Shown: positions 13,827 to 64,000, numbered from the stretch's first letter. The stretch: DNA of 64,000 nt from Minisyncoccota bacterium (GCA_022843285.1 JALHNY010000001.1:15128-79127), one strand, 5' to 3'. A program made the numbers and translations. The notes: generated by a model from the letters alone, not told the origin.

Positions 13827-13954
13827 TTTTTAAGTAGCTCCTGAATTTGAAATTTGTCGCCGGGGCGACAGCCCGCCGAAGATACGGCACCCGCGATTTT
13901 CGCGCAAGACCCCGGCACGCAGAGAGGGCCACCGATTGTTCGGTGGCCCTCTCT

Positions 13955-14277
13955 GGGCGGCGTCCTGGTAAGCGGGATTCTGTCGCCAGTGGCGGACAGC
14001 AATCTATCTGGGATCGCGGTCACCCGCGACCTCTAGCGGCACTCCAGCACGAGGCTGGCTCGGCCTTGCACCCGGTAAGGGTTTAGCCGTTTCACCCCGG
14101 CGGTCTCCCGCCGGACTACCCCCGAGGGGGTCCGGTCCATTTCTGGACGCGGCGTCTCTGCTCGCACCTCTCGCGTTGCCGCGGCGGGCCGTTAGCCCGT
14201 ACCTTTTTGACTTAGAAACTAAGTGGGTGTCCCGACTTTCCTCTGGGCAAGCCCAGCTGCTGTCTCGGACGCCGCAG
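13955..14277 (-). ncRNA. rnpB: RNase P RNA (bacterial type, reduced ~320 nt)
   Basis: On the minus strand: P4 5' strand AGAGGAAAGTCGGGAC, GGGGTGAAACGG, and the 3' P4 strand CGACAGAATCCCGCTTAC. P1 pairs GCGGCGTCC with GGACGCCGC. Confidence 0.8.
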
Positions 14278-24511: not shown

Positions 24512-24818
24512 CCGTTCTGCACTCTGCCTGCAAGTGAATCCGGCCCCTGGCTGGCACGGACTGGCGGAGCGGTCCTTGAAAGTGCGACATAAGATAGTAA
24601 TCCACCGGAGCACACTGATAGTGCTCCAAACAAAAAAGCTTAGTAGTTGTCTCAATAGCGTCTGACTCCCTGTAACGGGGCGTACGGCGTTAAACAAAAA
24701 CAACTACTCAAAATAAACCTGTTTATTTGAGTGACCCAACGGAGGATGAGCTCTACGCGTACGAACCTCGACCGCGCAAGCGGAGACAAGTACCACGCGA
24801 TACCTTATTTTTCTTTTA

Positions 24819-26412
<1,594 letters not shown>

Positions 26413-27380: not shown

Positions 27381-27382
27381 TG

Positions 27383-27468
27383 CGCAGGTGGTGAAACTGG
27401 TAGACACGCCATCTTGAGGGGGTGGTCCCGATTTCGGGGTGGAGGTTCAAGTCCTCTCCTGCGCACCA
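27383..27468 (+). tRNA. tRNA-Leu (anticodon GAG), encoded CCA
   Basis: Cloverleaf with a long variable arm, anticodon loop TTGAGGG, T-loop GGTTCAAGTCC, and acceptor GCGCAGG/CTGCGC followed by ACCA. Confidence 0.9.
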
Positions 27469-51723: not shown

Positions 51724-52634
51724 TTCTTTGCTTTGAAGAGCGCGATGAGCGCGATGACGGTGGCGAGCACCATGCCGCCGAGCACCCAGAACCCCTGCGG
51801 GTGCCCCATGAACGGGATGCCCTCGAGGCGGACGGCGAAGAGCGTCGCGAAGAGCGTGAGCGGGTACGTGATGAGGCTGACCACGGTGAGGACGCGGATG
51901 ACCTGGCCGCTCCGCATGCTCATGAGCTGGTTGTTGGTCTGCTCGAAGTCCGCGACGGCGGTGCGGTAGTCATCGATCTGCTGGCTGATGCGCAGGAAGT
52001 CGCCGTGGATGTCCTCGATGTACGGCGCCGTGCCCTCGCCGAAGAAGCTCGCACCCACGCCCTGCAGCGAGGTGAGCACCTGCCCCATGGGGTTGAAGAT
52101 GATCTTGTACTCGGAGATGTCCCGCTTGAGGTACGCGATGCGCACGAGCAGGTCCTGGTTGCTGCCCGTGAAGAGGTCCGAGCCGACCGCCTCCACCTTC
52201 TCCTGGATGTGGCGCAGCTGGCGCTGGTTGTACGCGAGGACGTGCGAGAGGATGCCGTACGTGATCTCGAGCCCGGGCGGCACGGGGAGCTGGCGCTCCT
52301 TGCCGGCGAGCCCCTGGTTCGCCGCGAACTCGAGCGCGTGCAGGTGCTCGTAGTGGACGGTGATGACGACGTCGCGGCGGATGATGAAGTCTATCTCCGC
52401 GCGGCGCGACACGAAGTTCTTGGCGTCGTATATGGGGAACTGCACCGCGAGGAACAGGTACGAGCCGAAGTTCTCCACGTGGGCGCGCGGGGAGGGGGAG
52501 GTGAGTTCCTTGAGGATCACCGGGTGTAGGTCCAGCTTCTGGCTGAGCTGCTTGAGCGCCGGGTGGTCCACGGTCGCGCCCTCCTCCAGCTGGATGTCGA
52601 TCCAGGGTTGCAGGTCTTTTGAACGCGACGTCAT
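51714..52634 (-). CDS. corA: CorA-family Mg2+/Co2+ transporter (variant GMN-region)
   Basis: Cytoplasmic domain plus two C-terminal TM helices; GIPFMGHP sits where the YGMNF motif would be. Confidence 0.75.
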   Translation of the reverse strand: MTSRSKDLQPWIDIQLEEGATVDHPALKQLSQKLDLHPVILKELTSPSPRAHVENFGSYLFLAVQFPIYDAKNFVSRRAEIDFIIRRDVVITVHYEHLHALEFAANQGLAGKERQLPVPPGLEITYGILSHVLAYNQRQLRHIQEKVEAVGSDLFTGSNQDLLVRIAYLKRDISEYKIIFNPMGQVLTSLQGVGASFFGEGTAPYIEDIHGDFLRISQQIDDYRTAVADFEQTNNQLMSMRSGQVIRVLTVVSLITYPLTLFATLFAVRLEGIPFMGHPQGFWVLGGMVLATVIALIALFKAKKWI

Positions 52635-52691
52635 GGGAGCAATTGTACCAAAAATTTCTGCCACTCTGTTCGCGCTACTCACAAATTGTGG

Positions 52692-52720
52692 TTGTCAATT
52701 TGTGTACACCCTGGTATAAT
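52692..52720 (+). promoter_or_regulatory. near-consensus promoter (TTGTCA, 17-nt spacer, TGgTATAAT) with no downstream plus-strand ORF
   Basis: The reverse complement also offers a TG-extended TACAAT for corA on the minus strand about 45 nt away. Confidence 0.5.
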
Positions 52721-52819
52721 AGTTCCACAGGTAAGAATCCTAGACTCCTGTGGACCTGAAATGCAGAAAGGCTCTACTGCGGGATCCCAGTAGGCCAGCG
52801 CGAGCTGGAATCCAACGGA

Positions 52820-53284
52820 TTACGATGAGGGAATGTCGCCCCTCCAGGTCCACAGAAGTCTGTGATTCTCTAGATACCCTGTTTTTCTGACACGGAATGC
52901 GGTGACAACAGAAAAGTAAATTTCGCCTGAGGTCGTCGCTTGCTTTTCGAGAATGACCACATACTGGGCTCCCTGAATTTGCTTAACAAAAATGAAGTCA
53001 CCTCTTTTGCCGTCTTTATTTTCGTAAATTGCGTTTGGCAATCTCACAATGAGGTGCGCACATTTCAAGATCACCTCAAATTCCTGCGCGGTTCGCTTGT
53101 CATACAGATGCTTGATTACTCGTGAGCTGAGGTAAACCTTCGCCGCTCCATCTGCAGTTTTTAGAACCGCGCCTACCTTTTTAGTGAGGCGCGCAATGAG
53201 CTGTTCTGTTACCGCAACCAGGGCGCCGGGGAGAGTACCCTTGACGTTACGAATAAAAAGGTTTTCAGCTGCTTTTTTGAACAT
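52820..53284 (-). CDS. hypothetical protein in a low-GC (~47%) patch
   Basis: 154-aa ORF whose composition is clearly foreign relative to the flanks; no family recognised. Confidence 0.5.
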   Translation of the reverse strand: MFKKAAENLFIRNVKGTLPGALVAVTEQLIARLTKKVGAVLKTADGAAKVYLSSRVIKHLYDKRTAQEFEVILKCAHLIVRLPNAIYENKDGKRGDFIFVKQIQGAQYVVILEKQATTSGEIYFSVVTAFRVRKTGYLENHRLLWTWRGDIPSS

Positions 53285-53318
53285 TGACAGTGTGTCATTC
53301 TAGGCGTCGGACCACGCA

Positions 53319-53345
53319 TTAGCAATCTTGACCCAAGACTGCTAA
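53319..53345 (+). promoter_or_regulatory. CIRCE operator (HrcA binding site) TTAGCAaTC-N9-GAcTGCTAA
   Basis: An inverted repeat with 9-nt spacer matching TTAGCACTC-N9-GAGTGCTAA at 16 of 18 positions. It lies immediately upstream of hrcA, with -10 TAAAAT at about 53352. Confidence 0.75.
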
Positions 53346-53366
53346 CGGCGATAAAATGCCCGGGCA

Positions 53367-54053
53367 ATGCGAGATCGTTCAGCTGAGATTCTCGAGGCGA
53401 CCGTCCGGGAGTTCATCTCCTCGGGCGTTCCGGTCAGCTCGTCGCACCTGTACGAGCGCTACGACTTCGGAATCAAGCCGGCGACCATCCGCATTGAGCT
53501 GACGGACCTCACGGACCAGGGCTTCCTCGAACAGCCGCACCACGCGGCGGGCCGGGTGCCCAGCGACACCGGCTACGAGTTCTACGCGGCGCGCGCCCTC
53601 TCGGGGGCGCACCCGGCGAAGGCCGGCCACGGCATCACCGCAGCCATCCGCGAGAGCGCGTGGGACCACCTCGCCGACCTCATGGCCGAGCAGATGGGCG
53701 CGGTGGGCATCGTCGCGGACCTCACGGATGGGTACGCGTTCACGCGCGGCCTCCCGCAGCTGGTCGAGCGCCTGGACTGGGAGAGCCGCGACGAGCTCGC
53801 CGGCATCCTGCGCGACATCGAGGCCATCGACGAGCGCATCGGATCGTTCCGCTCCCGCCTCGGCGTGGACCCGCGCCTGTTCATCGGCAAGTCCAGCCCG
53901 TTCGGGCGCACGAGCGCCCTCGCCGCGGTTGCCGCGCAGTACTCGCTGCGCGGGCACCCGATAGCGATCATCGCGGTCGGGCCCAAGCGCATGGACTACG
54001 ACCGCGCCGCGCAGCTGTTCGCCACCGTCGACCACCTCATCAACAAAGACTGA
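53367..54053 (+). CDS. hrcA: heat-inducible transcription repressor HrcA (short, 228 aa)
   Basis: N-terminal winged helix ILEATVREFISSGVPVSSSHL..ATIRIELTDLTDQGFLEQPHHAAGRVP. Confidence 0.85.
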   Translation: MRDRSAEILEATVREFISSGVPVSSSHLYERYDFGIKPATIRIELTDLTDQGFLEQPHHAAGRVPSDTGYEFYAARALSGAHPAKAGHGITAAIRESAWDHLADLMAEQMGAVGIVADLTDGYAFTRGLPQLVERLDWESRDELAGILRDIEAIDERIGSFRSRLGVDPRLFIGKSSPFGRTSALAAVAAQYSLRGHPIAIIAVGPKRMDYDRAAQLFATVDHLINKD

Positions 54054-54572: not shown

Positions 54573-56450
54573 ATGCCCAAAATTATCGGAATCGACCTCG
54601 GAACCACCAACTCGGCCATCGCCGTCACCGACGGCGGCGAGCCGCGCATCCTCGAGAACCACGAGGGCAACCGCACCACGCCGTCCATCGTCGCGGTGAA
54701 CAAGGCGGGGGAGCGCCTCGTGGGGCTGCTCGCCAAGCGCCAGGCCATCACGAACCCGCAGAACACCATCTTCTCCGTGAAGCGCCTCATCGGGCGCCCC
54801 TTCGACGACCCGGAGGTGCAGCGCGACAAGACCTGGCTCCCGTACGAGATCCGGAAGGCACCCAACGGCGGCGTGGAGGTGAAGCTCGGCGAGGAGTGGC
54901 ACACCCCTGAGGCGGTGTCGTCCTTCATCCTCGCGAAGCTCAAGGCGGACGCCGAGGCGAAGCTCGGCGAGAAGGTGACCGAGGCGGTCATCACGGTGCC
55001 GGCGTACTTCGACGACGCCCAGCGCCAGGCTACCAAGAACGCGGGTGAGATCGCCGGCCTCACCGTGCGCCGCATCATCAACGAGCCGACCGCAGCCGCG
55101 CTCGCGTACGGCCTGAACCGCAACAAGCACGAGAAGGTCGTGGTGTACGACTTCGGCGGCGGCACGTTCGACGTGTCCGTCCTCGACATTGCCGACGACA
55201 CCGTGGAGGTGGTCGCGACCGGCGGCGACACGCACCTCGGCGGCGACGACTTCGACAACAAGATTCACGAGTACCTCATGGGTGAGTACAAGAAGCAGGA
55301 GGGCATCGACCTCTCCAAGGACCCGCTCGCGCTGCAGCGCATCAAGGAGGCGGCGGAGCGCGCCAAGCACGAGCTCTCCTCGAGCACCGAGACGGAGATC
55401 AACATCCCGTACATCACGAGCGACGCGTCAGGGCCCAAGCACTTCATGCTGAAGATGACCCGCGCCAAGCTCGAGGAGCTCACCCGTGAGCTCGTGGAGC
55501 GCTCCGTTGAGATCACCAGGGAGGTGGTTACGGCAGCCGCGCCGAAGGGCGCCGGCTTCCAGCTCTCGGACATCGCCGAGATCATCCTCGTGGGCGGCCA
55601 GACGCGCATGCCGAGCATCCAGGAGGCGGTGAAGAACCTCTTCGGCAAGGAGCCGCACCGCGGCATCAACCCGGACGAGGTCGTCTCGCTCGGCGCGGCC
55701 GTACAGGCGGGCATCCTGCAGGGCGACGTGAAGGACATCCTGCTCCTCGACGTCACCCCGCTGACGCTCTCCATCGAGACGATGGGTGGCGTCGCGACGC
55801 CGATGATCGAGAAGAACACGACCGTCCCGACGAACAAGACGCAGACCTTCTCCACCGCCGCGGACAACCAGCCTTCCGTCGAGGTGCACATCCTCCAGGG
55901 GGAGCGCCCCATGGCGGCGGACAACAAGACGCTCGCGCGCTTCATGCTGGACGGCATCCCGCCGGCGCCGCGCGGCGTGCCGCAGATTGAGGTCAGCTTC
56001 GACATCGACGCCAACGGCATTCTGAACGTCTCCGCCAAGGACAAGGCGAGCGGCAAGACGCAGTCCGTCCGCATCGAGGCATCCACCTCGCTCTCCAAGG
56101 AGGAGATCGAGAAGCTCAAGGCGGACGCGGAGGCGCACGCCGCCGAGGACGCCAAGCGCCGCGAGCTCGTGGATGCCAAGAACCACGCCGAGTCGCTCGC
56201 GTACTCCGCGGAGAAGGCGCTCGCCGACGCGGGGGACAAGGTCCCCGCGGACGTGAAGTCCGGCGTCGAGGAGAAGGTGAAGGCCGTGCGGGACGCGCTC
56301 GCCGGGGAGGACCTCGCCGCTATCAAATCCACCTCTGAGGCGCTAAACTCAGAGATGCAAAAGATCGGCGAAGCGGTCTACAAACAGAACGACAGTGCTG
56401 CTACTGAACCCGGAACACCTGAAGGCGACGCAGGACCCGCTGCTGCCTAG
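54573..56450 (+). CDS. dnaK: molecular chaperone DnaK (Hsp70)
   Basis: [18 protein letters not shown] and the usual Hsp70 signatures. The ORF-track start at 54150 is an upstream extension overlapping grpE and was rejected. Confidence 0.95.
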
Positions 56451-57414
56451 GGAGCACCTCGCGCCCACGTACGCGGCCATCGTCCGGCTGACCGCCGCCG
56501 CCGTCACGGGCATCGTGGGCCTGACCATCGGGTACGGCGTGAACGCGTACCTCGCCGGTGCCTGGCCCTTCTGGGGCACCGTGATCCCCATCGCGGCGTT
56601 CTGCTTCGCGGCGACCCTCACCACCGTCATCGTGGACGACACGCGGTGGCACCTGCTCTTCAGCGCGTTCTGGGGCGTGTGCGTCACGCTCGCGCTCCCG
56701 TGGCGCACCGCCTCCGAGGCCGCGCTCCTGGCGCTCATCGTCGCGGCCTTCGCCATGGGCGCGTACTGGGCGTACCGCACCACGAGCAGCACGTACACGA
56801 CGCTCCACCTCTTCACCCTGACGCGCAAGTACACGTCCACGCTCGCGACGGGCGTCATCATCGCGCTCATCGTGCTGTACGGCGCGGCGGTCTCGCGCGG
56901 CTCCGCGCTCCTGCCGCAGGGCGTGCTCGCGAACCTCACGGACCAGGCGGTGCGCATCGTGCCGACGCTCATCCCGGGTGCACAGCCGTCCTCGCCGACC
57001 TCGACGCTCTCCGTGGGCGACCTCGCCATGGCGTCCGCCCGCGCGCAGCTCGAGGCGGACCCGCGCTTCCGCGCGCTCGGCCCCGAGGACCAGGCGCGCG
57101 TGCTGGCGGAGGCGGCCCGCGCGGCTGCTGACGGCGTCATCAAGCAGCTCGGCACCGGCGGCAGCGCGAGCTCCAGCGTCGGCCACGTGGCGCAGGGCGC
57201 CTTCTCCAACATCCTGCAGGGGTTCCAGGATCGCTACGGCTGGTACTTCACCATCGCGTGGCTGCTCGGCGCGTTCTTCATCGCGCGCTCCGCGGCGGTG
57301 CTCCTGACCATCGCGGTCGCCGTGCTGGTCTGGATGGTGGTCCTCGTCGCGGTCTCCGCCGGTCTCCTCCGCATAGAGGCCATCCCGTCCCTCCACGAGC
57401 GCGTCACACTCTGA
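56395..57414 (+). CDS. hypothetical polytopic membrane protein inserted between dnaK and dnaJ
   Basis: 339-aa ORF with at least 6 hydrophobic helices; probable GTG start overlapping the dnaK 3' end. Confidence 0.55.
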
Positions 57415-57417
57415 GGC

Positions 57418-58476
57418 ATGGCTAAGGACTACTACTCAGTACTGGGCGTCTCCCGCACCGCCTCCCAAGACGACATCAAAAAGGCGTACCGGAAGGCCGC
57501 GCACCAGCACCACCCCGACAAGGAGGGCGGCGACGAGGCGCGCTTCAAGGAGATCAACGAGGCGTACCAGGTGCTCGGCAACGCCGAGAAGCGCGCCCGC
57601 TACGACCGCACGGGTTCCGCCGAGGACATTCCCGGGTACGGGGGGTTCGGCGGCTTCGGCGCGGAGGGCTTCAACGTGAACATCGAGGACCTGGGAGACC
57701 TGTTCTCGTCTGTCTTCTCCGGCGGCTTCGGGGGAACCGCGCGCCGCGAGGAGCGCGGGCGCGATCTGCACGTCGAGGTGATGGTCACGCTCGAGGACGC
57801 GTTCCGCGGCGGCACGCACCAGTTCACGATTCCGGCGCTCGTGCAATGCGGGAAGTGCAAGGGTGAGGGTACCGCCGATGGGTCCAAGCTGCACACCTGC
57901 GCGAAGTGCGCGGGCAAGGGGCAGGTGACGCAGACCCGCCGCGTGCTTTTTGGGCAGTTCCAGCAGGTGGTCTCGTGCGACGCGTGCGACGGTACGGGCA
58001 AGGTTCCGGAGAAGCCCTGCCCGGACTGCTCCGGCGCCGGGCGCAAGAAGGGGGAGCGGCACGTCTCCGTGCAGTTCGAGCCTGGCATCGGGGACGGCCA
58101 GGTGCTCGCCGTCGCCGGCATGGGGGACGCGGGGCGCCGCGGGCAGCCGAGTGGGAACCTCGGCGTGCGCATCCGCGTGGCGCGGCACGCGGCGTTCTCA
58201 CGCGACGGGGACGACCTCATCACGCGCGTGAAGGTGAGTCCGCTCCAGCTGCTGCGCCATGACCCGATTCCCGTGCCCGTGATTGATGGGGCGAAGGTGA
58301 ACGTGGATCTGGGTAGTGGCGTGGATCTCGCCGAGCGGTACCGCGTGAAGGGACAGGGCATGCCGCGGTACCGGAGCCGTGGCAGGGGAGACCTGTACGT
58401 GGAGTTCCACGTGGTGACCGGGAAGAAGCCCAACAAAAAGGAGATGGAAGGACTGGGGGAGTTGTTCGAGTCCTAG
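57418..58476 (+). CDS. dnaJ: molecular chaperone DnaJ
   Basis: J-domain with HPD, G/F region, four CxxCxGxG zinc repeats, and a C-terminal domain. Confidence 0.9.
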
Positions 58477-58513
58477 TCCCGCAGCAGCCACTTTTATGGT
58501 CTAAAATTGAATT

Positions 58514-59410
58514 ATGGAGCGAATCAAAACACCCACGTTTGAGTTGGCAGTTCTCATGCGTGGTGATGAGAAGGCAGAGCAATTAGCCCTGCTCCTTCCA
58601 GGGCGCCTTGATACGAAAGACTACGTGAGCTTTACAAGCCTTGCAGATGAGCTTGCCGAACGGGGATGGCTTGCTGTGGCTTTTGATCCGCCAGGCACGT
58701 GGGAGAGCGGTGGTGAGATAAGCGATTTCACGACAACTAACTACCTGCAGGCCGTACGCGAACTTGTAGAGTACTTTGGCAATCGACCCACTGTGTTGAT
58801 CGGTCACAGCAGGGGAGGCGCCGTTGCCATGTTGCTCGGGCAATCTTTGCCTGCGGTAATTGGCATCGCGATGCTCATGCCAAGCTTCAATGATCCGACT
58901 CCGCCAGATGAGAATGCGGTACAGGCTGGCTTCAAGGTCTCACGCAGAGATTTGCCGCCTGGCTCGCAGAAGACGGACGCGCAGAAAGAATTCGCTTTGC
59001 CTGTGAGCTATTGGGAAGATGGCAAGAAGTATCATCCAGTAGAAGTTTTATTAGAAACAATGAAGCCTAAGCTGATTGTTTACGCCACTGAGGATGAATT
59101 CATGCAGGTCGAGGAAGCCAAGGAGGTATGCGACAAGCTACCTGAGCCAAAGAGGATTTATGAGGTAGAGGCGGTACATGACTATCGCTACCACCCCGCA
59201 GCAATCAAAGAAGTGAATGGGATCATCAAGGAATTTCTCACAAGCCTAGTTAGGAAATGCCAATGTGAGGAGCCGAATTGTGGAAAGTGTTTATCCATCA
59301 ATTGTCAAGATCATGATTGCCTCGTTCATACAAGAGAGGCGAAGGCGCGCTGGCGAAGAAACTGGGAGATGGCTAGCCGGAAGGAGTTTCCACACCCTAA
59401 GAATTACTAG
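58514..59410 (+). CDS. alpha/beta-fold hydrolase with Cys-rich C-terminal tail (first gene of low-GC island)
   Basis: Nucleophile elbow GHSRGG; C-terminal CQCEEPNCGKCLSINCQDHDC; GC about 50%. Confidence 0.7.
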   Translation: MERIKTPTFELAVLMRGDEKAEQLALLLPGRLDTKDYVSFTSLADELAERGWLAVAFDPPGTWESGGEISDFTTTNYLQAVRELVEYFGNRPTVLIGHSRGGAVAMLLGQSLPAVIGIAMLMPSFNDPTPPDENAVQAGFKVSRRDLPPGSQKTDAQKEFALPVSYWEDGKKYHPVEVLLETMKPKLIVYATEDEFMQVEEAKEVCDKLPEPKRIYEVEAVHDYRYHPAAIKEVNGIIKEFLTSLVRKCQCEEPNCGKCLSINCQDHDCLVHTREAKARWRRNWEMASRKEFPHPKNY

Positions 59411-59706
59411 AAATAGGTTCCAAGTTCGTCTAGCTTGGCCAGCTCGGAAGGTCTGATGAATCAGACCATGACACGTAAGGGAAAATAAGGGTTTTTAAGC
59501 GACTGTTTCGAGACCACGACCCTCGACCGATTTGAGACTCGAACCCGACCATGACGGGTGAGTATCTCAGAGGGTCAGCAGTCATAAACACCCCGTCTAA
59601 TGACCTAGATGGGTGAGATGTTTGAAGTCTGGTTGAAATACCTTGACTTTAGTTTTATATCGTCGCCTGACCTTTCGTTCGAGAGTATACTTAAGGTTAG
59701 TGCTTC

Positions 59707-62700
59707 ATGAAGAGAGCACAATCTATGGACGTTCTAAAACCTTCCATTCAAATAAAACCTCTAAGGTTCTCCGAGAACCCAGCTGATTACGCTCTCTATC
59801 GGGCGGCTTTGGAGTGGGATTTGATCGATCCTATTGTTATCGAGAGTCCGGAAGATCTGAAATCCACGCGGTCATGGGCCGACAAGGTTCAACCTTATCA
59901 GCATCAAGTATCAAACCTCATAAGTTTTTGTCGCCGCTTGCCTGTAACGCTTCTCGCAGATGATGTTGGTCTAGGCAAGACCATTAGTGCAGGATTGGTT
60001 GCCAGTGAATTAATTTCTCGGGGTCGTCTGTCAAAAATCCTCATAGTTGCGCCAAAGATACTCGGTCCTCAATGGCAGGAAGAGTTGGAAACGAAATTCG
60101 GAATACCTTCAATCATTGCGACTGGAAAGGGTCTACTGGATGCAGAACCGCCTGGTGATATAGGTGCCGTCATAACTACCTATAATTCCGCGCGAATGTA
60201 TCTGACTCGACTCCGAGATGCGGGGTTCGACATGTTGATACTCGACGAAGCCCACAAGCTCAGAAACTTGTATGGTACTGATACTGCGCCCCAAGTAGCT
60301 TTGCGTTTCAAAGAGATTTTGGCCGATCGAGTTTTTAAGTACGTTCTTCTTCTTACTGCTACCCCGATTCAAAATAGACTTTGGGATTTATATTCGCTTG
60401 TTGAACTTCTTACGGTTGCACGTGGCCACGAGAATCCGTTCGGCAATCCAGGCACGTTTTCAAGAAAGTTTATCGCCGACAATCGGACAGATGCGCGCAA
60501 GCTCAATACGGAAGCGCAAGAAGAGTTTCGTTCGATTATTTATGGCTACATGTCTCGAGTGCGACGTGGAGACGCAGATCTGCATTTCCCAGGAAGAGAA
60601 GTTCAACTTCACTCAGTAAATCCTTCCCCGGGTGAATTGGAGTTGATTAAGGTTGTTGCCACGTATATTGGAGATTTGGATAGGCTTACTCAGATAAATA
60701 TCCTGAAGACTTTGGTCAGTAGCCCTGAGGCACTCACTATCATGCTTAAAGGGATGGCCGAACGGGGAACGGTAAAGAAGGAATTTGCCGTTGCAGTAAA
60801 GGAGGTTGCCAAGACGATCTCGCTCACATCAAAGTTGCAGGGCCTGGAAACGTTAGTCGACAAACTAAGGGCAGAAAAACCGACCCAGTGGCGCATGGTC
60901 GTTTTTACGACACGGATTGAGACACAAACTTCAATTCAGAATTTCTTGGAAGAACGAGGCATTAGTTGTGGACTCATAAACGGCACGACCGGCTCCACGA
61001 ATAAAGATACTCTTGAGAAGTTCCGGAAAGATGACCCAGAAATCAACGTAATGATATCTACGGAAGCCGGAGCAGAAGGCGTCAACTTGCAGGTTGCAAA
61101 TGTCTTGGTCAACTACGACTTGCCTTGGAATCCGATGATTGTTGAGCAACGTATTGGTCGCGTACAACGTCTCGGCTCGGTTCATGAAAAAGTGTGCATC
61201 TTCAATATCGTCCTCAAGGATACATTTGAGGACTATATCGTTGGTCGCTTGATGGAGAAATTGCAAATGGCTTCGCATGCTATCGGCGATATCGAGTCGT
61301 TGCTTGAGGCCTCGGGACTTGGAGAAGGTGAAGATAGTTCGGAAGTATTTGAGCAAAAGGTACTCAAGCTTGTTCTCGCCTCATTGCAGGGCAAAGACAT
61401 TGGGGAAGCAGCCAAAAGAGCGGAGCGGAGCATTGAGAATGCAAAAATCCAACTGGAGAAGGAAGAGGAAAATATCAATTCCATGCTCGGGAGCATGGAT
61501 GAATCCTATGACACAGGTCCCCAAAGTCCGATACTTCCAAAGGTTATCCGATCTATGGATGTTAAGGATTTCGTATTGTCTGGACTCAAGAGTTTGGGTG
61601 CAACACTGACACAAAAAACGCCTGAATTTTACCTCTCGGAACTCAACAAAAAGCAGGAGCTAATACGCTTCGACAATAATCTCAGCATTCCCGTCGCAGA
61701 TGGTCCTTTACTTAGAAACGTTCTGTATGCGCCGGGCAGCCCAGCTTTTGAGAGATTGGTAAGTAAGGTAACGAACGTTGGTCTGCACCGTGTTGAGGAC
61801 GCTGATGCTAATCCGAAAGACAAGCTTGAGGCAATAGTGAAAGAATGGGTGGATAAAACAGGAGCGTCTTATCTTGGCTCAAAGATAACAGGTGTTCGAC
61901 GCACGTTCAGCGGCGCGGCACTAGTAAGGGTACGAGTGACTGTGGCTCATGATAGTTATGAACGCCTCGTTGAAATTCCCTGCTCCCACTCGGAGCATAT
62001 AGGGGAATCAACAAAACTGGCCTTGGATCCTCTCGATAACACGATACTTAATGAGCCATCGCTTATCGGCATATCTCCCGAGTTGCTGATCGACAGAGCT
62101 CTCCTTGATGCTGGCGTGTCGGAATTCTGTCGCTTTTACAGAGAGCGATTGTCTCAGGAGTTGAAGAATGCTGGGTTGGATCCTGCAAAAAAGAAGAAGA
62201 TAGAAGACGACTTTACTCCTCGTCTTGAGTGCGCGTTGGTTGGTCTGGAGGGATTCGTCCGGCGTCAGTTTGAAACGAATGCATCTTACCGATTTGGCGA
62301 GAGCGATGAAAATAGCAGTGCTCTAGAAGTATTGCCTTCTCTAGGGGAGACAGTTTCTGCTCCTAAGTTGGCAAAATGTGAGGAGACTGGGAAATCGGTG
62401 CCTGTTGATTGCCTCGATCGCTGCGATATTAGTCGTAAGAGAGTTCTGCGTTATCTGCTTGTGAAATCGGATACCAGCGACCGGAAAGCGTTGCAGAAAT
62501 ACATAGTCAAGTGCGAATACACTGGAAAGCATGTACTGAATGATGAAGTGGAGAAATCCGATGTTACTGGCCATATGGTTCTGGCCATGATGCTAAAAGA
62601 GTCTGCTCTTAGTGGCAAGAAGGGCGAACCCGATGCGTTTGGAAAATGCGATTTCACAGGCGCGGAACTCCTGTTGAGTGAGCTGGGCGTTAGCCAAGTA

Positions 62701-63444
62701 TCAGGGAAAACGTATCGTCTGGACGAAGCGGGTACTTCTTCGGTGTCAGGGAAGACTGGACATCGCACAGAGTTTGTTAAGTGCGTGGAGACAAATTCTC
62801 TCATCTTGCCGGAAGAATCGGAAATATGCGAAGTAACTGGAAAGGTAGTTACTAAGGGACTGCTGGAAGAGTGTGAAATATCTGGCAAGAAGGTATTGCC
62901 TTCAAAGCTGGAAACAAGTTCTCTGAGCGGAAAGAAGGCGCTCAAAAAGTACTTCGTTTCCAGTAGCATCTCTGACGCAAGACTACTGAAGGAAGAAGCA
63001 ATCAAATCTGCAGCTGGAAAGTTCTGCTTGCCTGTCGAGGCAAAGGAATGCGCATGGAGTCACAGACTTTGCCATATCGATGATTTGAAGTTTTGTTCTC
63101 TCACCAATCTAGCCTTTTACTTTCAGTTTATAAAAGAGAAAGATGCCCAATCTCGGCTAGAGGTTTTGTCTGATCTTTTGGATGAAGTCCAGAGGGGTCT
63201 TGAGATCGAGGTGACTGAGAATATGCGCACTAACCTTGCATTCGCTATAAAGCATAAGACCTGTGAAGTTGAATCAAACAAATCTAATCCGGACAAGAAA
63301 ATCATCGCTATCTGCTTCTCTGGCAAGTCGTTCCTCGGATTGAGGACTAGACATTTTGGCGCGCTTTACTCGCTTGATGCGGAGACTGTCGTAGGCAAGA
63401 TTGCCGAAGGCAGCAGAAACACTAACGGCTGGACGCCGAACTAA
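59707..63444 (+). CDS. SNF2-family (SWI2/SNF2) helicase/ATPase with ~600-aa C-terminal extension containing ~10 tandem 15-aa repeats
   Basis: Motif I LADDVGLGKT, motif II DMLILDEAHKLRN, motif III LLLTATPIQNRL, motif VI QRIGRVQRLGS. GC about 46%. Confidence 0.85.
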   Translation: MKRAQSMDVLKPSIQIKPLRFSENPADYALYRAALEWDLIDPIVIESPEDLKSTRSWADKVQPYQHQVSNLISFCRRLPVTLLADDVGLGKTISAGLVASELISRGRLSKILIVAPKILGPQWQEELETKFGIPSIIATGKGLLDAEPPGDIGAVITTYNSARMYLTRLRDAGFDMLILDEAHKLRNLYGTDTAPQVALRFKEILADRVFKYVLLLTATPIQNRLWDLYSLVELLTVARGHENPFGNPGTFSRKFIADNRTDARKLNTEAQEEFRSIIYGYMSRVRRGDADLHFPGREVQLHSVNPSPGELELIKVVATYIGDLDRLTQINILKTLVSSPEALTIMLKGMAERGTVKKEFAVAVKEVAKTISLTSKLQGLETLVDKLRAEKPTQWRMVVFTTRIETQTSIQNFLEERGISCGLINGTTGSTNKDTLEKFRKDDPEINVMISTEAGAEGVNLQVANVLVNYDLPWNPMIVEQRIGRVQRLGSVHEKVCIFNIVLKDTFEDYIVGRLMEKLQMASHAIGDIESLLEASGLGEGEDSSEVFEQKVLKLVLASLQGKDIGEAAKRAERSIENAKIQLEKEEENINSMLGSMDESYDTGPQSPILPKVIRSMDVKDFVLSGLKSLGATLTQKTPEFYLSELNKKQELIRFDNNLSIPVADGPLLRNVLYAPGSPAFERLVSKVTNVGLHRVEDADANPKDKLEAIVKEWVDKTGASYLGSKITGVRRTFSGAALVRVRVTVAHDSYERLVEIPCSHSEHIGESTKLALDPLDNTILNEPSLIGISPELLIDRALLDAGVSEFCRFYRERLSQELKNAGLDPAKKKKIEDDFTPRLECALVGLEGFVRRQFETNASYRFGESDENSSALEVLPSLGETVSAPKLAKCEETGKSVPVDCLDRCDISRKRVLRYLLVKSDTSDRKALQKYIVKCEYTGKHVLNDEVEKSDVTGHMVLAMMLKESALSGKKGEPDAFGKCDFTGAELLLSELGVSQVSGKTYRLDEAGTSSVSGKTGHRTEFVKCVETNSLILPEESEICEVTGKVVTKGLLEECEISGKKVLPSKLETSSLSGKKALKKYFVSSSISDARLLKEEAIKSAAGKFCLPVEAKECAWSHRLCHIDDLKFCSLTNLAFYFQFIKEKDAQSRLEVLSDLLDEVQRGLEIEVTENMRTNLAFAIKHKTCEVESNKSNPDKKIIAICFSGKSFLGLRTRHFGALYSLDAETVVGKIAEGSRNTNGWTPN
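62371..63090 (+). repeat. in-frame tandem 45-nt (15-aa) repeat region inside the SNF2 gene; consensus [KS][CS][DE].[TS]GK.VL
   Basis: Units are KCEETGKSV, KCEYTGKHV, SDVTGHMV, ALSGKKG, KCDFTGAEL, QVSGKTY, SVSGKTG, KCVETNSLI, ICEVTGKVV, CEISGKKV, SLSGKKA, at about 45-nt spacing. Confidence 0.6.
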
Positions 63445-63446
63445 AT

Positions 63447-64000
63447 ATGACTCCAATATCCAAGACAACCTTTCTGTCTTTCCTCGAATGCCCTCGAAAT
63501 GTGTGGCTACAGCTTCATCGTCCTGATGAGGTTGGGAAGTGTGTGCCTTCAGACTTCGAACTCCATCTGATGGAACAGGGCAATGAAGTAGAAGCCGAGG
63601 CTCGAAAGCTTTTCCCCGGTGCCGTACAGATAACTTCTACTGGAGACGACGCGATTGAAGATACGAGACGTCTGATGGCGGCAAAAAGTCCCACGATCTT
63701 CCAAGCCACCTTTCTCGTAGATGGGTTTATCGCAAAAAACGACATGCTTTCGTACGACGTGGAGCATGATTGCTGGAATCTCTACGAAGTAAAGGGTACC
63801 AACTCTGTAAAGGAGGACGGTGCAGGCAATCGTGACCATATAGACGATCTTGCTTTCCAGCTAAGAGTACTCCGGCGTGATGGCGTGAAAGTCGGCAAGT
63901 GTTTTCTCGTACACCTGAATAAAGAGTACATACGCAACGGCGATCTTGACCTCAATGCGTTGTTTGAAATGGAGGATGTAACCGAGAAAATAGAGGCACG
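63447..64000 (+). CDS. DUF2779-like PD-(D/E)xK family nuclease, 3'-truncated by window end
   Basis: N-terminal SK(T)TFLSFLECPRNVWLQLHRPDE matches the DUF2779 signature (S-K-S-x-F..G..C-P-[KR]..W), with a downstream YEVKG (E-x-K) motif. The ATG lies 3 nt after the SNF2 stop. Confidence 0.55.
   Translation, partial: MTPISKTTFLSFLECPRNVWLQLHRPDEVGKCVPSDFELHLMEQGNEVEAEARKLFPGAVQITSTGDDAIEDTRRLMAAKSPTIFQATFLVDGFIAKNDMLSYDVEHDCWNLYEVKGTNSVKEDGAGNRDHIDDLAFQLRVLRRDGVKVGKCFLVHLNKEYIRNGDLDLNALFEMEDVTEKIEA

What the first reader, a model, noticed from the sequence alone, without database searches (positions are those of the whole stretch)
58480..64000. Low-GC island after dnaJ encoding hydrolase + SNF2 helicase + DUF2779 nuclease: candidate novel defence/conflict module
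GC falls from about 65% to about 46-50% exactly at the dnaJ stop and stays low to the window end. The island carries an alpha/beta hydrolase with a Cys-rich tail, a 296-nt noncoding spacer, and a 1,245-aa SNF2-family ATPase. A PD-(D/E)xK (DUF2779-type) nuclease starts 3 nt after the helicase stop, so the two are translationally coupled. A helicase tightly coupled to a nuclease in a compositionally foreign island next to core genes is the architecture of many anti-phage systems (DISARM, Hachiman, Nhi and others). This particular combination with the repeat-bearing C-terminal domain does not correspond to any system I can name. The right boundary lies outside the window.
Basis: partly seen in the sequence, partly recalled or inferred. 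Interest (0 to 1): 0.8.

Follow-up and report, generated by a model that had tools for sequence, protein, structure and literature searches.

The report
Strain-variable SNF2 translocase–nuclease island
A 6.7-kb piece of foreign DNA in a tiny Patescibacteria genome carries an operon for an undescribed kind of SNF2 DNA motor and a two-headed nuclease; it looks like a candidate anti-invader module, but nobody has tested what it does.

Summary
GC drops from 0.655 to 0.477 seven bases after the dnaJ stop.

Identical public contigs extend the window. They complete the last gene as a 521-aa DUF2779 protein: a Cas4-like PD-(D/E)xK nuclease fused to a DEDDy exonuclease. They also fix the island at 58484..~65164 (6,681 bp). 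A sibling strain with 99.6%-identical flanks lacks the island, so the gain or loss is recent. No integrase or target-site duplication was found.

The 1,245-aa SNF2 protein is the core. Its family has about 555 clusters at 50% identity across many phyla and no copies in the phage or plasmid collections searched. Its C-terminal half has no Pfam or PDB relative and contains about 17 tandem 15-residue beta-hairpin units whose number varies between homologues.

A dual nuclease lies within 600 nt of the SNF2 gene in 14 of 49 loci. The partner is either DUF2779 or a PDDEXK+RNase_H_2 protein. Where they are paired, the two proteins co-evolve (Mantel r 0.92).

The hydrolase is a common Patescibacteria gene and is not part of the module. 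Its Cys-rich tail is unique to this copy.

A defence role is plausible but untested. It rests on mobility, on integrase, OLD-family and methyltransferase neighbours, and on helicase–nuclease logic. DNA repair or nucleotide salvage remains a real rival.

Verdict: partly supported; a new variant of a known kind.

The parts
58484..64000 (+). Low-GC island, in-window part. The full island runs from 58484 to window-equivalent ~65164 (6,681 bp).
   Evidence: The left junction is 58483/58484. Empty-site contig L086 matches the window at 98.0% up to 58483 and then diverges. Homology resumes at L001 position 6627, which is window-equivalent 65165. GC is 0.477 against 0.655.
58514..59410 (+). alpha/beta-hydrolase passenger gene (298 aa). 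The hydrolase proper is aa 1-245. Aa 246-298 form a Cys-rich extension unique to this copy.
   Evidence: Pfam Abhydrolase_1 E=2e-14. There are 711 homologues, mostly ~247 aa and from Patescibacteria, at 52-58% identity over aa 1-247. The nearest (82% identity) ends at aa 245. The hydrolase is absent from all other SNF2 and DUF2779 loci.
59411..59706 (+). 296-nt non-coding spacer upstream of the SNF2 gene; presumably holds its promoter or 5' leader.
   Evidence: No Rfam match at E<=1. No sigma-70-like promoter or intrinsic terminator. It folds better than shuffles, z=-3.4. No similarity to the upstream regions of homologues.
59707..63444 (+). SNF2-family ATPase/translocase, 1,245 aa (probable true start is Met7 at 59725).
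   Evidence: more than 100 full-length homologues at 55-84% identity. All helicase motifs are invariant (GLGKT, DEAHKLRN, TATP, QRIGRxQRLG).
59941..61176 (+). SNF2 ATPase core (SNF2-rel_dom aa 79-315; Helicase_C aa 383-490).
   Evidence: Pfam 87.1 and 72.1 bits. The closest solved relative is the RapA core, E=5e-28.
61564..62346 (+). Family-specific middle region (aa ~620-880): alpha+beta modules with long curved sheets.
62377..63141 (+). Array of about 17 tandem 15-residue units, consensus [CS]-x-[VI]-[ST]-G-K-x-V-L-x-x-E-L-x-x (aa 891-1145).
   Evidence: The units are in exact 15-aa register. Cys is invariant at 891, 906, 936, 981, 1026, 1041, 1056, 1107, 1115 and 1130. Each unit is predicted as a beta-hairpin plus turn, pLDDT ~90. 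Copy number varies, with proteins of 1,225-2,100 aa. The DNA shows 45-nt periodic repeats at 64-73% identity. No PDB match.
63142..63441 (+). C-terminal beta-rich cap domain of the SNF2 protein (aa 1146-1245).
   Evidence: Predicted antiparallel sheet with pLDDT 85-92. Conserved G1218, G1230, R1237 and W1242.
63447..64000 (+). 5' part (184 of 521 codons) of the DUF2779 dual nuclease. It contains the PD-(D/E)xK triad D99 (63741-63743), E114 (63786-63788) and K116 (63792-63794). The gene ends at window-equivalent 65012.
   Evidence: Translation. The full gene is L001:4909-6474, PF11074 E=1e-35 at aa 302-427. Invariant residues are D99, E114, K116; C210, C212 and C221 are invariant and C15 nearly so; and D305, E307, D407, Y479, D483.
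57418..58476 (+). dnaJ, the host flank and not part of the island. It is the last gene of an hrcA-grpE-dnaK-(membrane protein)-dnaJ cluster.
   Evidence: Pfam DnaJ, DnaJ_C and DnaJ_CXXCXGXG. Neighbouring genes. DnaK homologues place the host in Patescibacteria/Paceibacterota.

Best explanation
**Shown**
- The region is a 6.7-kb horizontally acquired island that differs between strains. It replaces about 207 bp at a variable spot between dnaJ and a pilin-like gene in a high-GC Patescibacteria (Paceibacterota) genome.
- Its functional cargo is a two-gene operon.
- Gene 1 is an SNF2-family ATPase with intact motor motifs. Its family-specific C-terminal half is two NTF2/cystatin-like modules, an array of 15-residue beta-hairpin repeats whose number varies between homologues, and a beta cap.
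- Gene 2 starts 2 nt after gene 1. It is a DUF2779 protein combining a Cas4-like PD-(D/E)xK nuclease with four conserved Cys and a DEDDy 3'-5' exonuclease. Both catalytic sets are intact.

**Inferred**
- The SNF2 protein is a dsDNA translocase, and its C-terminal repeat array selects the substrate or partner.
- It loads on or tracks along non-self or abnormal DNA, such as phage, plasmid or incoming linear DNA.
- It then delivers or licenses the two-polarity nuclease, which degrades that DNA from ends or nicks. This is the same helicase-plus-nuclease logic as Hachiman, ZorD, Cas3 or AddAB.
- The SNF2 is the constant element. The nuclease is an exchangeable accessory, either DUF2779 or a PDDEXK+RNase_H_2 protein, and is absent in about 70% of family members.
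- The hydrolase is a hitch-hiking passenger.
- The island probably moves by homologous recombination of its flanks rather than by its own recombinase.
For: **Island and its mobility**
- GC and GC3 both break at the junction.
- Junctions are reproduced in independent assemblies.
- The empty-site contig L086 comes from the same sample. The flanks of the occupied (L085) and empty (L086) strains are 99.6% identical.
- The island is 99.8-100% identical between strains whose flanks differ by 2%.

**Operon**
- The gap is 2 nt here. The median gap is about 13 nt, same strand, in 13 of the 14 genome loci with an adjacent DUF2779 (one is convergent) and in all 15 paired metagenome loci.
- Pairwise identities of the two proteins correlate across 20 paired loci: Mantel r=0.92, with 0 of 5,000 permutations as high.
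- The partner can swap. An 83%-identical SNF2 is followed by a PF13482 protein; at L007, L009 and L010 the downstream partner belongs to the same ~500-aa PF13482-type cluster, with PDDEXK_1+RNase_H_2 shown on the L007 member.

**Active sites**
- SNF2 motifs are invariant.
- The PD-(D/E)xK triad (D99/E114/K116), the DEDDy residues and C210/C212/C221 are invariant and C15 is nearly invariant. This fits published predictions for DUF2779 (PMC13621843, PMC3985635).

**Accessory, conflict-type behaviour**
- The family is patchy across Patescibacteria, Alphaproteobacteria, Nitrospira, Acidobacteria, Elusimicrobia and Planctomycetes, at 50-60% identity.
- No synteny is conserved apart from the nuclease.
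- Among the 115 nearest neighbours, the commonest families are phage integrases (6), OLD/GajA-like ATPases (3-4), DUF2130 and resolvases.
- A Type ISP-like MTase+TRD gene (L021) and an N6/N4 MTase gene (L054) lie directly upstream in two loci.
- No copy with the C-terminal half was found in 2.9 M viral contigs, 50,697 phage records or 72,556 plasmids.
- The repeat array expands and contracts, giving proteins of 1,225-2,100 aa.
Against: - No experiment exists for any member of this family.
- No PADLOC model covers the family-specific parts.
- About 70% of SNF2 family members have no adjacent nuclease and no conserved partner at all, so nuclease delivery cannot be the family's general mechanism.
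- Close DUF2779 relatives, including the closest at 84% identity (L140), occur without the SNF2. They often sit beside housekeeping genes such as rpoD, dnaG and hisS.
- In mycoplasmas DUF2779 is quasi-essential or needed for growth in cell culture (PMC13621843, PMC7373297). That points to a DNA-metabolism role rather than immunity.
- The defence-gene signal among neighbours is modest, and I had no background rate to test enrichment against.
- No methyltransferase or other self/non-self marker is present in this island.
- The role assigned to the repeat array is pure inference.
Confidence: 0.5

Rival explanations
1. This is a DNA repair, recombination or nucleotide-salvage module, not immunity. 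DUF2779 would be a general end-processing nuclease with 5'-3' and 3'-5' activities. The SNF2 would remodel or clear protein-bound or damaged DNA for it, by analogy with MrfA/MrfB or AddAB. In nucleotide-auxotrophic Patescibacteria the pair could also help turn imported DNA into nucleotides.
For: - DUF2779 relatives frequently stand alone beside housekeeping genes such as rpoD, dnaG, hisS and a DsbA-like gene.
- DUF2779 is quasi-essential in JCVI-syn3.0, and its exonuclease domain best matches the repair nuclease MrfB (PMC13621843).
- A DUF2779 transposon mutant of M. bovis is growth-deficient in cell culture, together with RecD, HolA and NrnA mutants (PMC7373297).
- SbcD-like and UvrD-like genes occur near some SNF2 copies.
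- The host is a Patescibacterium.
Against: - The module is present or absent between strains whose flanks are 99.6% identical. It is compositionally foreign and scattered across phyla without synteny. That is unusual for a repair function a cell depends on.
- Integrases, resolvases, OLD-family ATPases and R-M methyltransferases recur next to it.
- The pair also occurs in metabolically complete Acidobacteria and Alphaproteobacteria.
Confidence: 0.25
2. The SNF2 protein works essentially on its own as a RapA-like remodeller of RNA polymerase or nucleoprotein complexes. On this reading, adjacency to DUF2779 in this island is a lineage-specific association with no mechanistic coupling.
For: - The best solved relative is RapA, E=5e-28 over the core, and there is a faint Foldseek hit to RapA, probability 0.47.
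- 35 of 49 loci have no nuclease partner.
- No nuclease fold was detected in the SNF2 C-terminal half.
Against: - The NCBIfam RapA score is 127 bits against a cut-off of 576.
- RapA's N-terminal domains are absent, and the C-terminal 650 aa are unrelated to RapA.
- Pairing with a dual nuclease recurs in at least 29 loci, with gaps of about 13 nt, two gene orders and strong co-evolution. This is far beyond chance for a family of about 555 clusters.
Confidence: 0.12
3. The composition break is an assembly or binning chimera that joins a high-GC genome to unrelated low-GC DNA.
For: The GC step is sharp. Public short contigs tend to break near both island ends.
Against: - Independent Logan assemblies from SRR28154521, -22 and -29 contain the dnaJ 3' end joined to the hydrolase.
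- Assemblies from SRR28154521 and -23 contain DUF2779 joined to the high-GC pilin-like gene.
- The overlap with the window is 100% identical.
- The contig breaks are explained by co-existing occupied and empty alleles in the same sample.
Confidence: 0.02

Closest known systems
Hachiman (HamA nuclease + HamB SF2 helicase)
   Same: A two-gene operon pairing an SF2 motor with a PD-(D/E)xK-superfamily nuclease. The nuclease is thought to be held or licensed by the helicase. Both occur in variable islands.
   Different: HamB is a Ski2/DExH-like helicase and HamA a DUF1837 (Cap4-like) nuclease. Neither PADLOC model hits these proteins. Here the motor is SNF2 with a 650-aa novel C-terminal half. The nuclease carries a second, DEDDy, active site and is dispensable in most family members.
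Zorya ZorD, DISARM DrmD, BREX BrxHI and Dpd DpdE (defence-associated SNF2 ATPases)
   Same: They share the SNF2 ATPase core. The best PADLOC hits are BrxHI (207 bits), DrmD (188 bits) and HmaA (169 bits).
   Different: - Matches cover only the helicase lobes.
- NCBIfam equivalog scores are far below the cut-offs: DrmD 204 against 610, DpdE 172 against 500, ZorD 53 against 1500.
- None of the obligatory partner genes (ZorABC, DrmABC/MTase, PglX/PglZ/BrxC, Dpd cluster) is in the island.
- ZorD's fused Mrr nuclease is replaced here by a separate Cas4-like+DEDD protein.
DUF2779 / PF11074 proteins (e.g. MMSYN1_0389 of JCVI-syn3.0) and TM0106/PF13482 RecB-like nucleases
   Same: Gene 2 is a bona fide PF11074 member (123 bits against a cut-off of 23.3). 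It has the published architecture of a Cas4-like N-terminal half and a DEDD exonuclease C-terminal half (PMC13621843, PMC3985635).
   Different: - The published members are stand-alone genes of unknown function. Association with an SNF2 motor, or with a 1,524-aa SF1 helicase, is not described in the literature I could search.
- Unlike the mycoplasma protein, this clade keeps all four Cas4-type cysteines.
RapA/HepA (bacterial SNF2 that recycles RNA polymerase)
   Same: It is the closest solved structure by sequence (E=5e-28) and is a bacterial stand-alone SNF2.
   Different: Only the ATPase core aligns (aa 63-242 plus the second lobe). The score is 127 bits against an equivalog cut-off of 576. 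The N- and C-terminal domains are unrelated.
AddAB/RecBCD and Cas3 (motor-plus-nuclease DNA degraders)
   Same: The functional logic is an ATP-driven DNA motor coupled to a RecB-family nuclease with an Fe-S-type Cys cluster, as in AddB and Cas4.
   Different: - Those motors are SF1 or Cas3-type SF2 helicases that unwind DNA, whereas SNF2 enzymes translocate on duplex DNA without unwinding it.
- No Chi-recognition or CRISPR components are present.
- The Pfam Cas_Cas4 score of 12.4 bits is below the 22.7 cut-off.

Membership tests
SNF2 family ATPase (Pfam PF00176 + PF00271) | SNF2-related N-lobe and Helicase_C lobe above the Pfam gathering scores, with intact Walker A and DExH motifs. | tested here: met
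   87.1 bits against 24.9 and 72.1 bits against 23.5. GLGKT and DEAH are invariant in 21 homologues.
DISARM (DrmD) | DrmD equivalog score, plus DrmA/DrmB (and DrmC or a methyltransferase) in the same locus. | tested here: not met
   NF038317 scores 204 bits against a cut-off of 610, on partial stretches only. The island has only three genes, none of them DrmA/B/C or a methyltransferase.
Zorya (ZorD) | ZorD equivalog (SNF2 fused to an Mrr-like nuclease) with ZorA, ZorB and ZorC neighbours. | tested here: not met
   NF041790 scores 53 bits against 1500. No nuclease fold in the SNF2 C-terminal half. No ZorABC genes.
BREX (BrxHI/BrxHII) | A helicase within a PglX/PglZ/BrxC/BrxL cluster. | tested here: not met
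   PADLOC BrxHI scores 207 bits but only over core stretches, best at aa 352-577. No BREX genes are in the island or its flanks.
Hachiman | A HamA (DUF1837) nuclease adjacent to a HamB helicase. | tested here: not met
   No HamA or HamB model is among the PADLOC hits for either protein.
DUF2779 (PF11074) | PF11074 domain above the gathering score, with a Cas4-like N-terminal half and DEDD catalytic residues. | tested here: met
   On the extension L001:4909-6471 the score is 123.1 bits against 23.3, at aa 302-427. D305, E307, D407, Y479 and D483 are invariant. The domain itself lies outside the 64-kb window, so the in-window fragment alone gives no PF11074 hit.
Cas4 (CRISPR adaptation nuclease) | Cas_Cas4 (PF01930) above its cut-off, a 4-Cys cluster, a D..ExK triad, and a cas/CRISPR context. 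| tested here: not met
   PF01930 scores 12.4 bits against 22.7. PADLOC Cas4 gives E=5e-4 to 8e-5. The triad and four Cys are conserved. No cas genes are adjacent in the island; a CRISPR array was not specifically searched for. It resembles Cas4 mechanistically but is not a member.
RapA | RapA equivalog score and RapA N-terminal domains. | tested here: not met
   NF003426 scores 127 bits against 576. The PDB alignment is limited to the core.
Integrative mobile element (genomic island with its own recombinase) | An integrase or recombinase gene, flanking direct repeats (att/TSD), and often a tRNA target. | tested here: not met
   The three genes are a hydrolase, an SNF2 and a DUF2779. The longest direct repeat between the ends is 11 nt and does not lie at the junctions. 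The only tRNA in the window is 31 kb away. The empty site shows replacement of 207 bp rather than a clean insertion.
Strain-variable accessory island (operational definition) | Present or absent between near-identical strains, compositionally deviant, with near-identical copies in diverged backgrounds. | tested here: met
   L085 (occupied) and L086 (empty) flanks are 99.6% identical. The island is 99.8-100% identical across strains whose flanks differ by 2%. GC is 0.477 against 0.655.

The most novel reading that the evidence does not exclude
This SNF2 family would be the core of a previously undescribed, widespread immune system, spanning Patescibacteria, soil Proteobacteria, Acidobacteria, Nitrospira and Planctomycetes. 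An expandable array of 15-residue beta-hairpin repeats, with no known structural relative, would act as the invader sensor on a DNA translocase. The motor would then recruit interchangeable two-headed nucleases (DUF2779 or PDDEXK+RNase_H_2), or act without any nuclease by stripping or stalling invader replication or transcription complexes. If so, DUF2779 gets its first functional context, and genome-reduced CPR bacteria gain a dedicated DNA-targeting defence that moves between strains by flank recombination.
Probability: 0.35. Interest if true: 0.7.

Novelty: new variant of a known kind. Interest (0 to 1): 0.55.

Why it matters
**If the defence reading is right**
- It adds a helicase-nuclease system whose motor carries a new repeat fold.
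- It would show that nuclease effectors can be swapped within one motor family.
- It would give the uncharacterised DUF2779 and PF13482 "Cas4-plus-exonuclease" proteins a testable role. These are quasi-essential in minimal mycoplasmas.

**Independent of function**
- The occupied and empty alleles co-exist in one groundwater-type population.
- They show gain or loss of a 6.7-kb island in a roughly 1-Mb-class Patescibacteria genome without any recombinase.
- This bears on how these reduced, probably naturally competent organisms exchange accessory genes.

**If the repair or salvage reading is right**
The locus is ordinary accessory DNA-metabolism cargo.

Tried and rejected
1. Exact look-ups of the window's own SNF2 and DnaJ proteins found nothing. 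The source NCBI contig (164,811 nt) could not be retrieved. Extension came from identical Logan contigs found via P0001.
2. An assembly chimera was rejected because of the junction-spanning contigs.
3. An integrase- or att-mediated island was rejected: no recombinase, no terminal repeats longer than 11 nt, no nearby tRNA.
4. The hydrolase as a module component was rejected.
5. The spacer as a known RNA or promoter was not supported. There was no Rfam hit, no sigma-70 or terminator match, and no conservation. Only a better-than-shuffle fold (z=-3.4) remains unexplained.
7. Phage or plasmid carriage was not found.
8. The afdb50 fold library was unavailable.
9. Literature searches for DUF2779, PF11074, COG2251, TM0106 and SNF2+Cas4-like turned up no description of this pairing.
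10. PADLOC and Pfam scans of 115 neighbour proteins gave only a modest mobile-element and defence signal. I had no background rate, so I do not claim statistical enrichment.

Full report
**1. Observation**

Windows of 500 nt read 0.65-0.73 GC up to 58,250 and 0.44-0.54 from 58,500 to the end.

The ORF map is as described:
- dnaJ at 57418-58476.
- A 298-aa alpha/beta hydrolase at 58514-59410.
- A 296-nt gap.
- A 1,245-aa ORF at 59707-63444.
- A further ORF whose ATG (63447) lies two bases after the preceding stop and which runs off the window.

Pfam puts SNF2-rel_dom and Helicase_C on the large protein and Abhydrolase_1 on the small one.

The last ORF's 184 in-window codons give no Pfam hit at E<=0.01 (one sub-threshold Cas_Cas4 match, E=0.17) and only a weak PADLOC Cas4 hit.

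**2. Extension and island borders**

A homology search found a 100%-identical protein, P0001, on three Logan contigs. L001 and L002 are base-for-base identical to the window over the 700-nt overlap and extend it by 1.45 kb.

The last gene is a 521-aa protein with PF11074/DUF2779 at aa 302-427 (E=1e-35). It ends at window-equivalent 65012. After 168 nt a high-GC gene starts, encoding a pilin-like N-terminus (MNSKKGFSTLSVLLVIAG...).

Contigs carrying 90%-cluster relatives of DnaJ gave both alleles of the locus:
- L085 is occupied.
- L086 comes from the same sample as L001 and is empty. There the dnaJ stop plus "tcccgca" is followed by 207 bp of unrelated low-GC DNA holding a 65-aa ORF, and then by the same pilin-like gene.

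The junctions are therefore 58483/58484 on the left and window-equivalent 65164/65165 on the right. The island is 6,681 bp with GC 0.477 against 0.655. GC3 is 0.47-0.55 in the island against 0.89 in dnaJ.

The flanks of L085 and L086 are 99.6% identical to each other and 98% identical to the window. The island part of L085 is 589/590 identical to the window. The island is thus younger than the divergence of its hosts and is currently polymorphic.

No integrase was found. No terminal repeat longer than 11 nt was found, and none sits at the junctions. There is no nearby tRNA.

DnaK homologues place the host in Patescibacteria/Paceibacterota.

**3. The SNF2 protein**

More than 100 full-length homologues at 55-84% identity were returned. 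They are either ~1,235 aa or ~1,350 aa long. The whole length is conserved (mean 57% identity) and all motor motifs are invariant.

PADLOC and NCBIfam hits (BrxHI, DrmD, HmaA, DpdE, ZorD, RapA) cover only the ATPase lobes. They fall far below the equivalog cut-offs. The closest solved relative is the RapA core.

Residues 600-1245 have no Pfam hit. From aa 891 the sequence is about 17 tandem 15-residue units, [CS]x[VI][ST]GKxVLxxELxx, in exact register. Ten Cys are invariant. The longer homologues carry an extra ~116-aa block of these units.

AlphaFold2 with 55 homologues models aa 590-1245 at mean pLDDT 87.8. Each unit is a beta-hairpin plus a turn. Two alpha+beta modules precede the array and a beta cap follows it.

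An exhaustive HMMER scan of 1.84 billion representatives with this half found 555 proteins. In the full-length hits the match begins around residue 580-600 of proteins 1,225-2,100 aa long; shorter hits look like fragments cut by contig ends. That means the half always sits behind the same SNF2 core, with up to nine matched stretches. The half is therefore specific to this SNF2 family, and the array expands and contracts.

**4. The nuclease**

An alignment of 12 SNF2-linked DUF2779 proteins shows these conserved residues:
- D99, E114 and K116, invariant: the PD-(D/E)xK triad, which lies inside the window.
- C210, C212 and C221 invariant and C15 nearly so: a Cas4/AddB-type cluster.
- D305, E307, D407, Y479 and D483, invariant: the DEDDy set.

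This matches published predictions that DUF2779 fuses a Cas4-like nuclease with a DEDD 3'-5' exonuclease (PMC13621843, PMC3985635).

**5. Is the pair a unit?**

*Genome-collection scan.* The scan returned 80 loci. The only recurrent immediate neighbour of the SNF2 gene is DUF2779, in 14 loci:
- 8 downstream and 5 upstream on the same strand, and 1 convergent.
- The median gap is 13 nt.

*A second partner type.* A homologous ~500-aa PDDEXK_1+RNase_H_2 (PF13482) protein takes the same place in L007, L009, L010 and L020, and in larger fusions in L033 and L047. The SNF2 that is 83% identical to ours (P0002) has the PF13482-type partner rather than DUF2779.

*Frequency.* Among 49 full-length loci with at least 2 kb on both sides, 14 have such a nuclease within 600 nt.

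*Reverse test.* Of the 80 closest DUF2779 loci in metagenomes:
- 15 have this SNF2 adjacent.
- 9 have instead a 1,524-aa SF1 helicase (AAA_11/AAA_12).
- The rest are solo, often beside rpoD, dnaG or hisS.
- The closest one (84% identity) has no SNF2.

*Co-evolution.* Where the two are paired, their pairwise identities correlate strongly (Mantel r=0.92, 0 of 5,000 permutations). The two gene orders form two clades.

The pair is real and co-inherited but facultative. Its spirit applies in part to DUF2779.

**6. The hydrolase and the spacer**

The hydrolase never accompanies the SNF2 or DUF2779 gene elsewhere. It belongs to a very common ~247-aa Patescibacteria family. Its nearest relative ends at residue 245, so the 53-aa Cys-rich tail is private to this copy.

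The spacer has no Rfam match, no sigma-70-like promoter or terminator, and no conservation. It does fold better than shuffled sequences (z=-3.4).

**7. Context elsewhere**

The family occurs in Patescibacteria, Alphaproteobacteria (Bradyrhizobium, Rhodopseudomonas, Hyphomicrobium), Nitrospira, Acidobacteria, Elusimicrobia and Gammaproteobacteria. More distant members occur in Planctomycetes. There is no synteny.

Among the 115 nearest neighbours from 34 loci, the commonest Pfam families are:
- Phage_integrase (6).
- OLD/GajA-like ATPases (3-4).
- DUF2130 (3).
- Resolvase (2).
- SbcD (2).

Directly upstream on the same strand lie a Type ISP-like MTase+TRD gene (L021) and an N6/N4 MTase (L054).

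No copy carrying the C-terminal half exists in IMG/VR, in 50,697 phage records or in 72,556 plasmids.

**8. Interpretation**

*Shown:*
- A recent, recombinase-less island.
- An operon of an intact SNF2 motor and an intact dual nuclease.
- A family-specific repeat domain without known relatives.
- Facultative, swappable nuclease partners.
- Accessory, horizontally spread behaviour.

*Inferred:*
- The motor tracks duplex DNA.
- The repeat array provides target or partner recognition.
- The nuclease degrades the selected DNA.

I favour a defence or conflict role (about 0.5). The main rival is a repair or nucleotide-salvage role (about 0.25). That rival is supported by DUF2779's housekeeping neighbourhoods and by the mycoplasma phenotypes (PMC13621843, PMC7373297).

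The locus is not a member of DISARM, Zorya, BREX, Hachiman, Cas4 or RapA by the tests listed. It works most like helicase-nuclease systems such as Hachiman or ZorD.

I found no publication describing this SNF2 family or its pairing with DUF2779.

**9. Verdict**

This is a new variant of a known kind: a helicase/translocase-plus-nuclease module with a novel sensor-like domain. Interest is moderate to fairly high pending experiment.

Noticed in passing
window 52500-53500; ORF 52820-53284 (-): There is a second low-GC patch (0.50-0.52) between corA and hrcA. It holds a 154-aa ORF matching PBECR3, a phage Barnase-EndoU-ColicinE5/D-RelE-like nuclease (E=2e-8, 34.4 bits against a cut-off of 30). It looks like another small foreign insertion carrying a toxin-type domain.
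   Followed up: partly
L086:2476-2682 (empty-site allele of the dnaJ hotspot): The strain lacking the island has 207 bp of different low-GC DNA (GC 0.42) at the same spot. It holds a 65-aa ORF (MKEAQKATRYLAELLSKQKGLL...). The dnaJ/pilin-like intergenic site therefore behaves as a hotspot with alternative cargos.
   Followed up: partly
L156:1409-5983 and 8 further metagenome loci: In 9 of 80 DUF2779 loci the nuclease is preceded, by about 34 nt on the same strand, by a ~1,524-aa SF1 helicase. That protein has AAA_11/AAA_12 domains, a weak MTES_1575 REase-like match and a Top1-type zinc ribbon. This is a second, different motor partner for DUF2779.
   Followed up: partly
L021:6841-9978 (+), 23 nt upstream of the SNF2-DUF2779 pair: A 1,045-aa gene encodes HSDR_N, an N6 methylase and a Type ISP C-terminal specificity domain (E=2e-69). 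It looks like a Type ISP enzyme lacking its own motor, placed next to the SNF2 and nuclease. This may be a split restriction-modification-like arrangement.
   Followed up: no
window 59255-59410 (hydrolase codons 248-298): The Cys-rich tail CQCEEPNCGKCLSINCQDHDCLVH... is absent from all 700+ homologues, which end at about aa 245-250. It may result from stop-codon loss or from capture of a fragment.
   Followed up: partly
window 59411-59706: The spacer upstream of the SNF2 gene folds markedly better than shuffled sequences (-96.4 kcal/mol, z=-3.4). It has a perfect hairpin (GGTCTGATGAATCAGACC) right after the hydrolase stop. There is no Rfam hit and no conservation in other loci.
   Followed up: partly
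window 24814-26390 (+), 27382-27468 (+), 13953-14275 (-): A 16S rRNA gene has no 23S or 5S rRNA gene anywhere in the 64-kb window, so the rRNA genes are unlinked. tRNA-Leu(GAG) lies 1 kb downstream of it, and RNase P RNA lies on the other strand.
   Followed up: no
window 56395-57414 (+): A 339-aa multi-pass membrane protein with no obvious family sits between dnaK and dnaJ in the hrcA-grpE-dnaK-dnaJ cluster. The same arrangement is present in the sibling strains L085 and L086.
   Followed up: no
L001:6642-6911 and L086:2699-2967: The pilin-like gene to the right of the island is only 91% identical between strains whose left flank is 98-99.6% identical. It is a fast-evolving surface protein next to the hotspot.
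   Followed up: no
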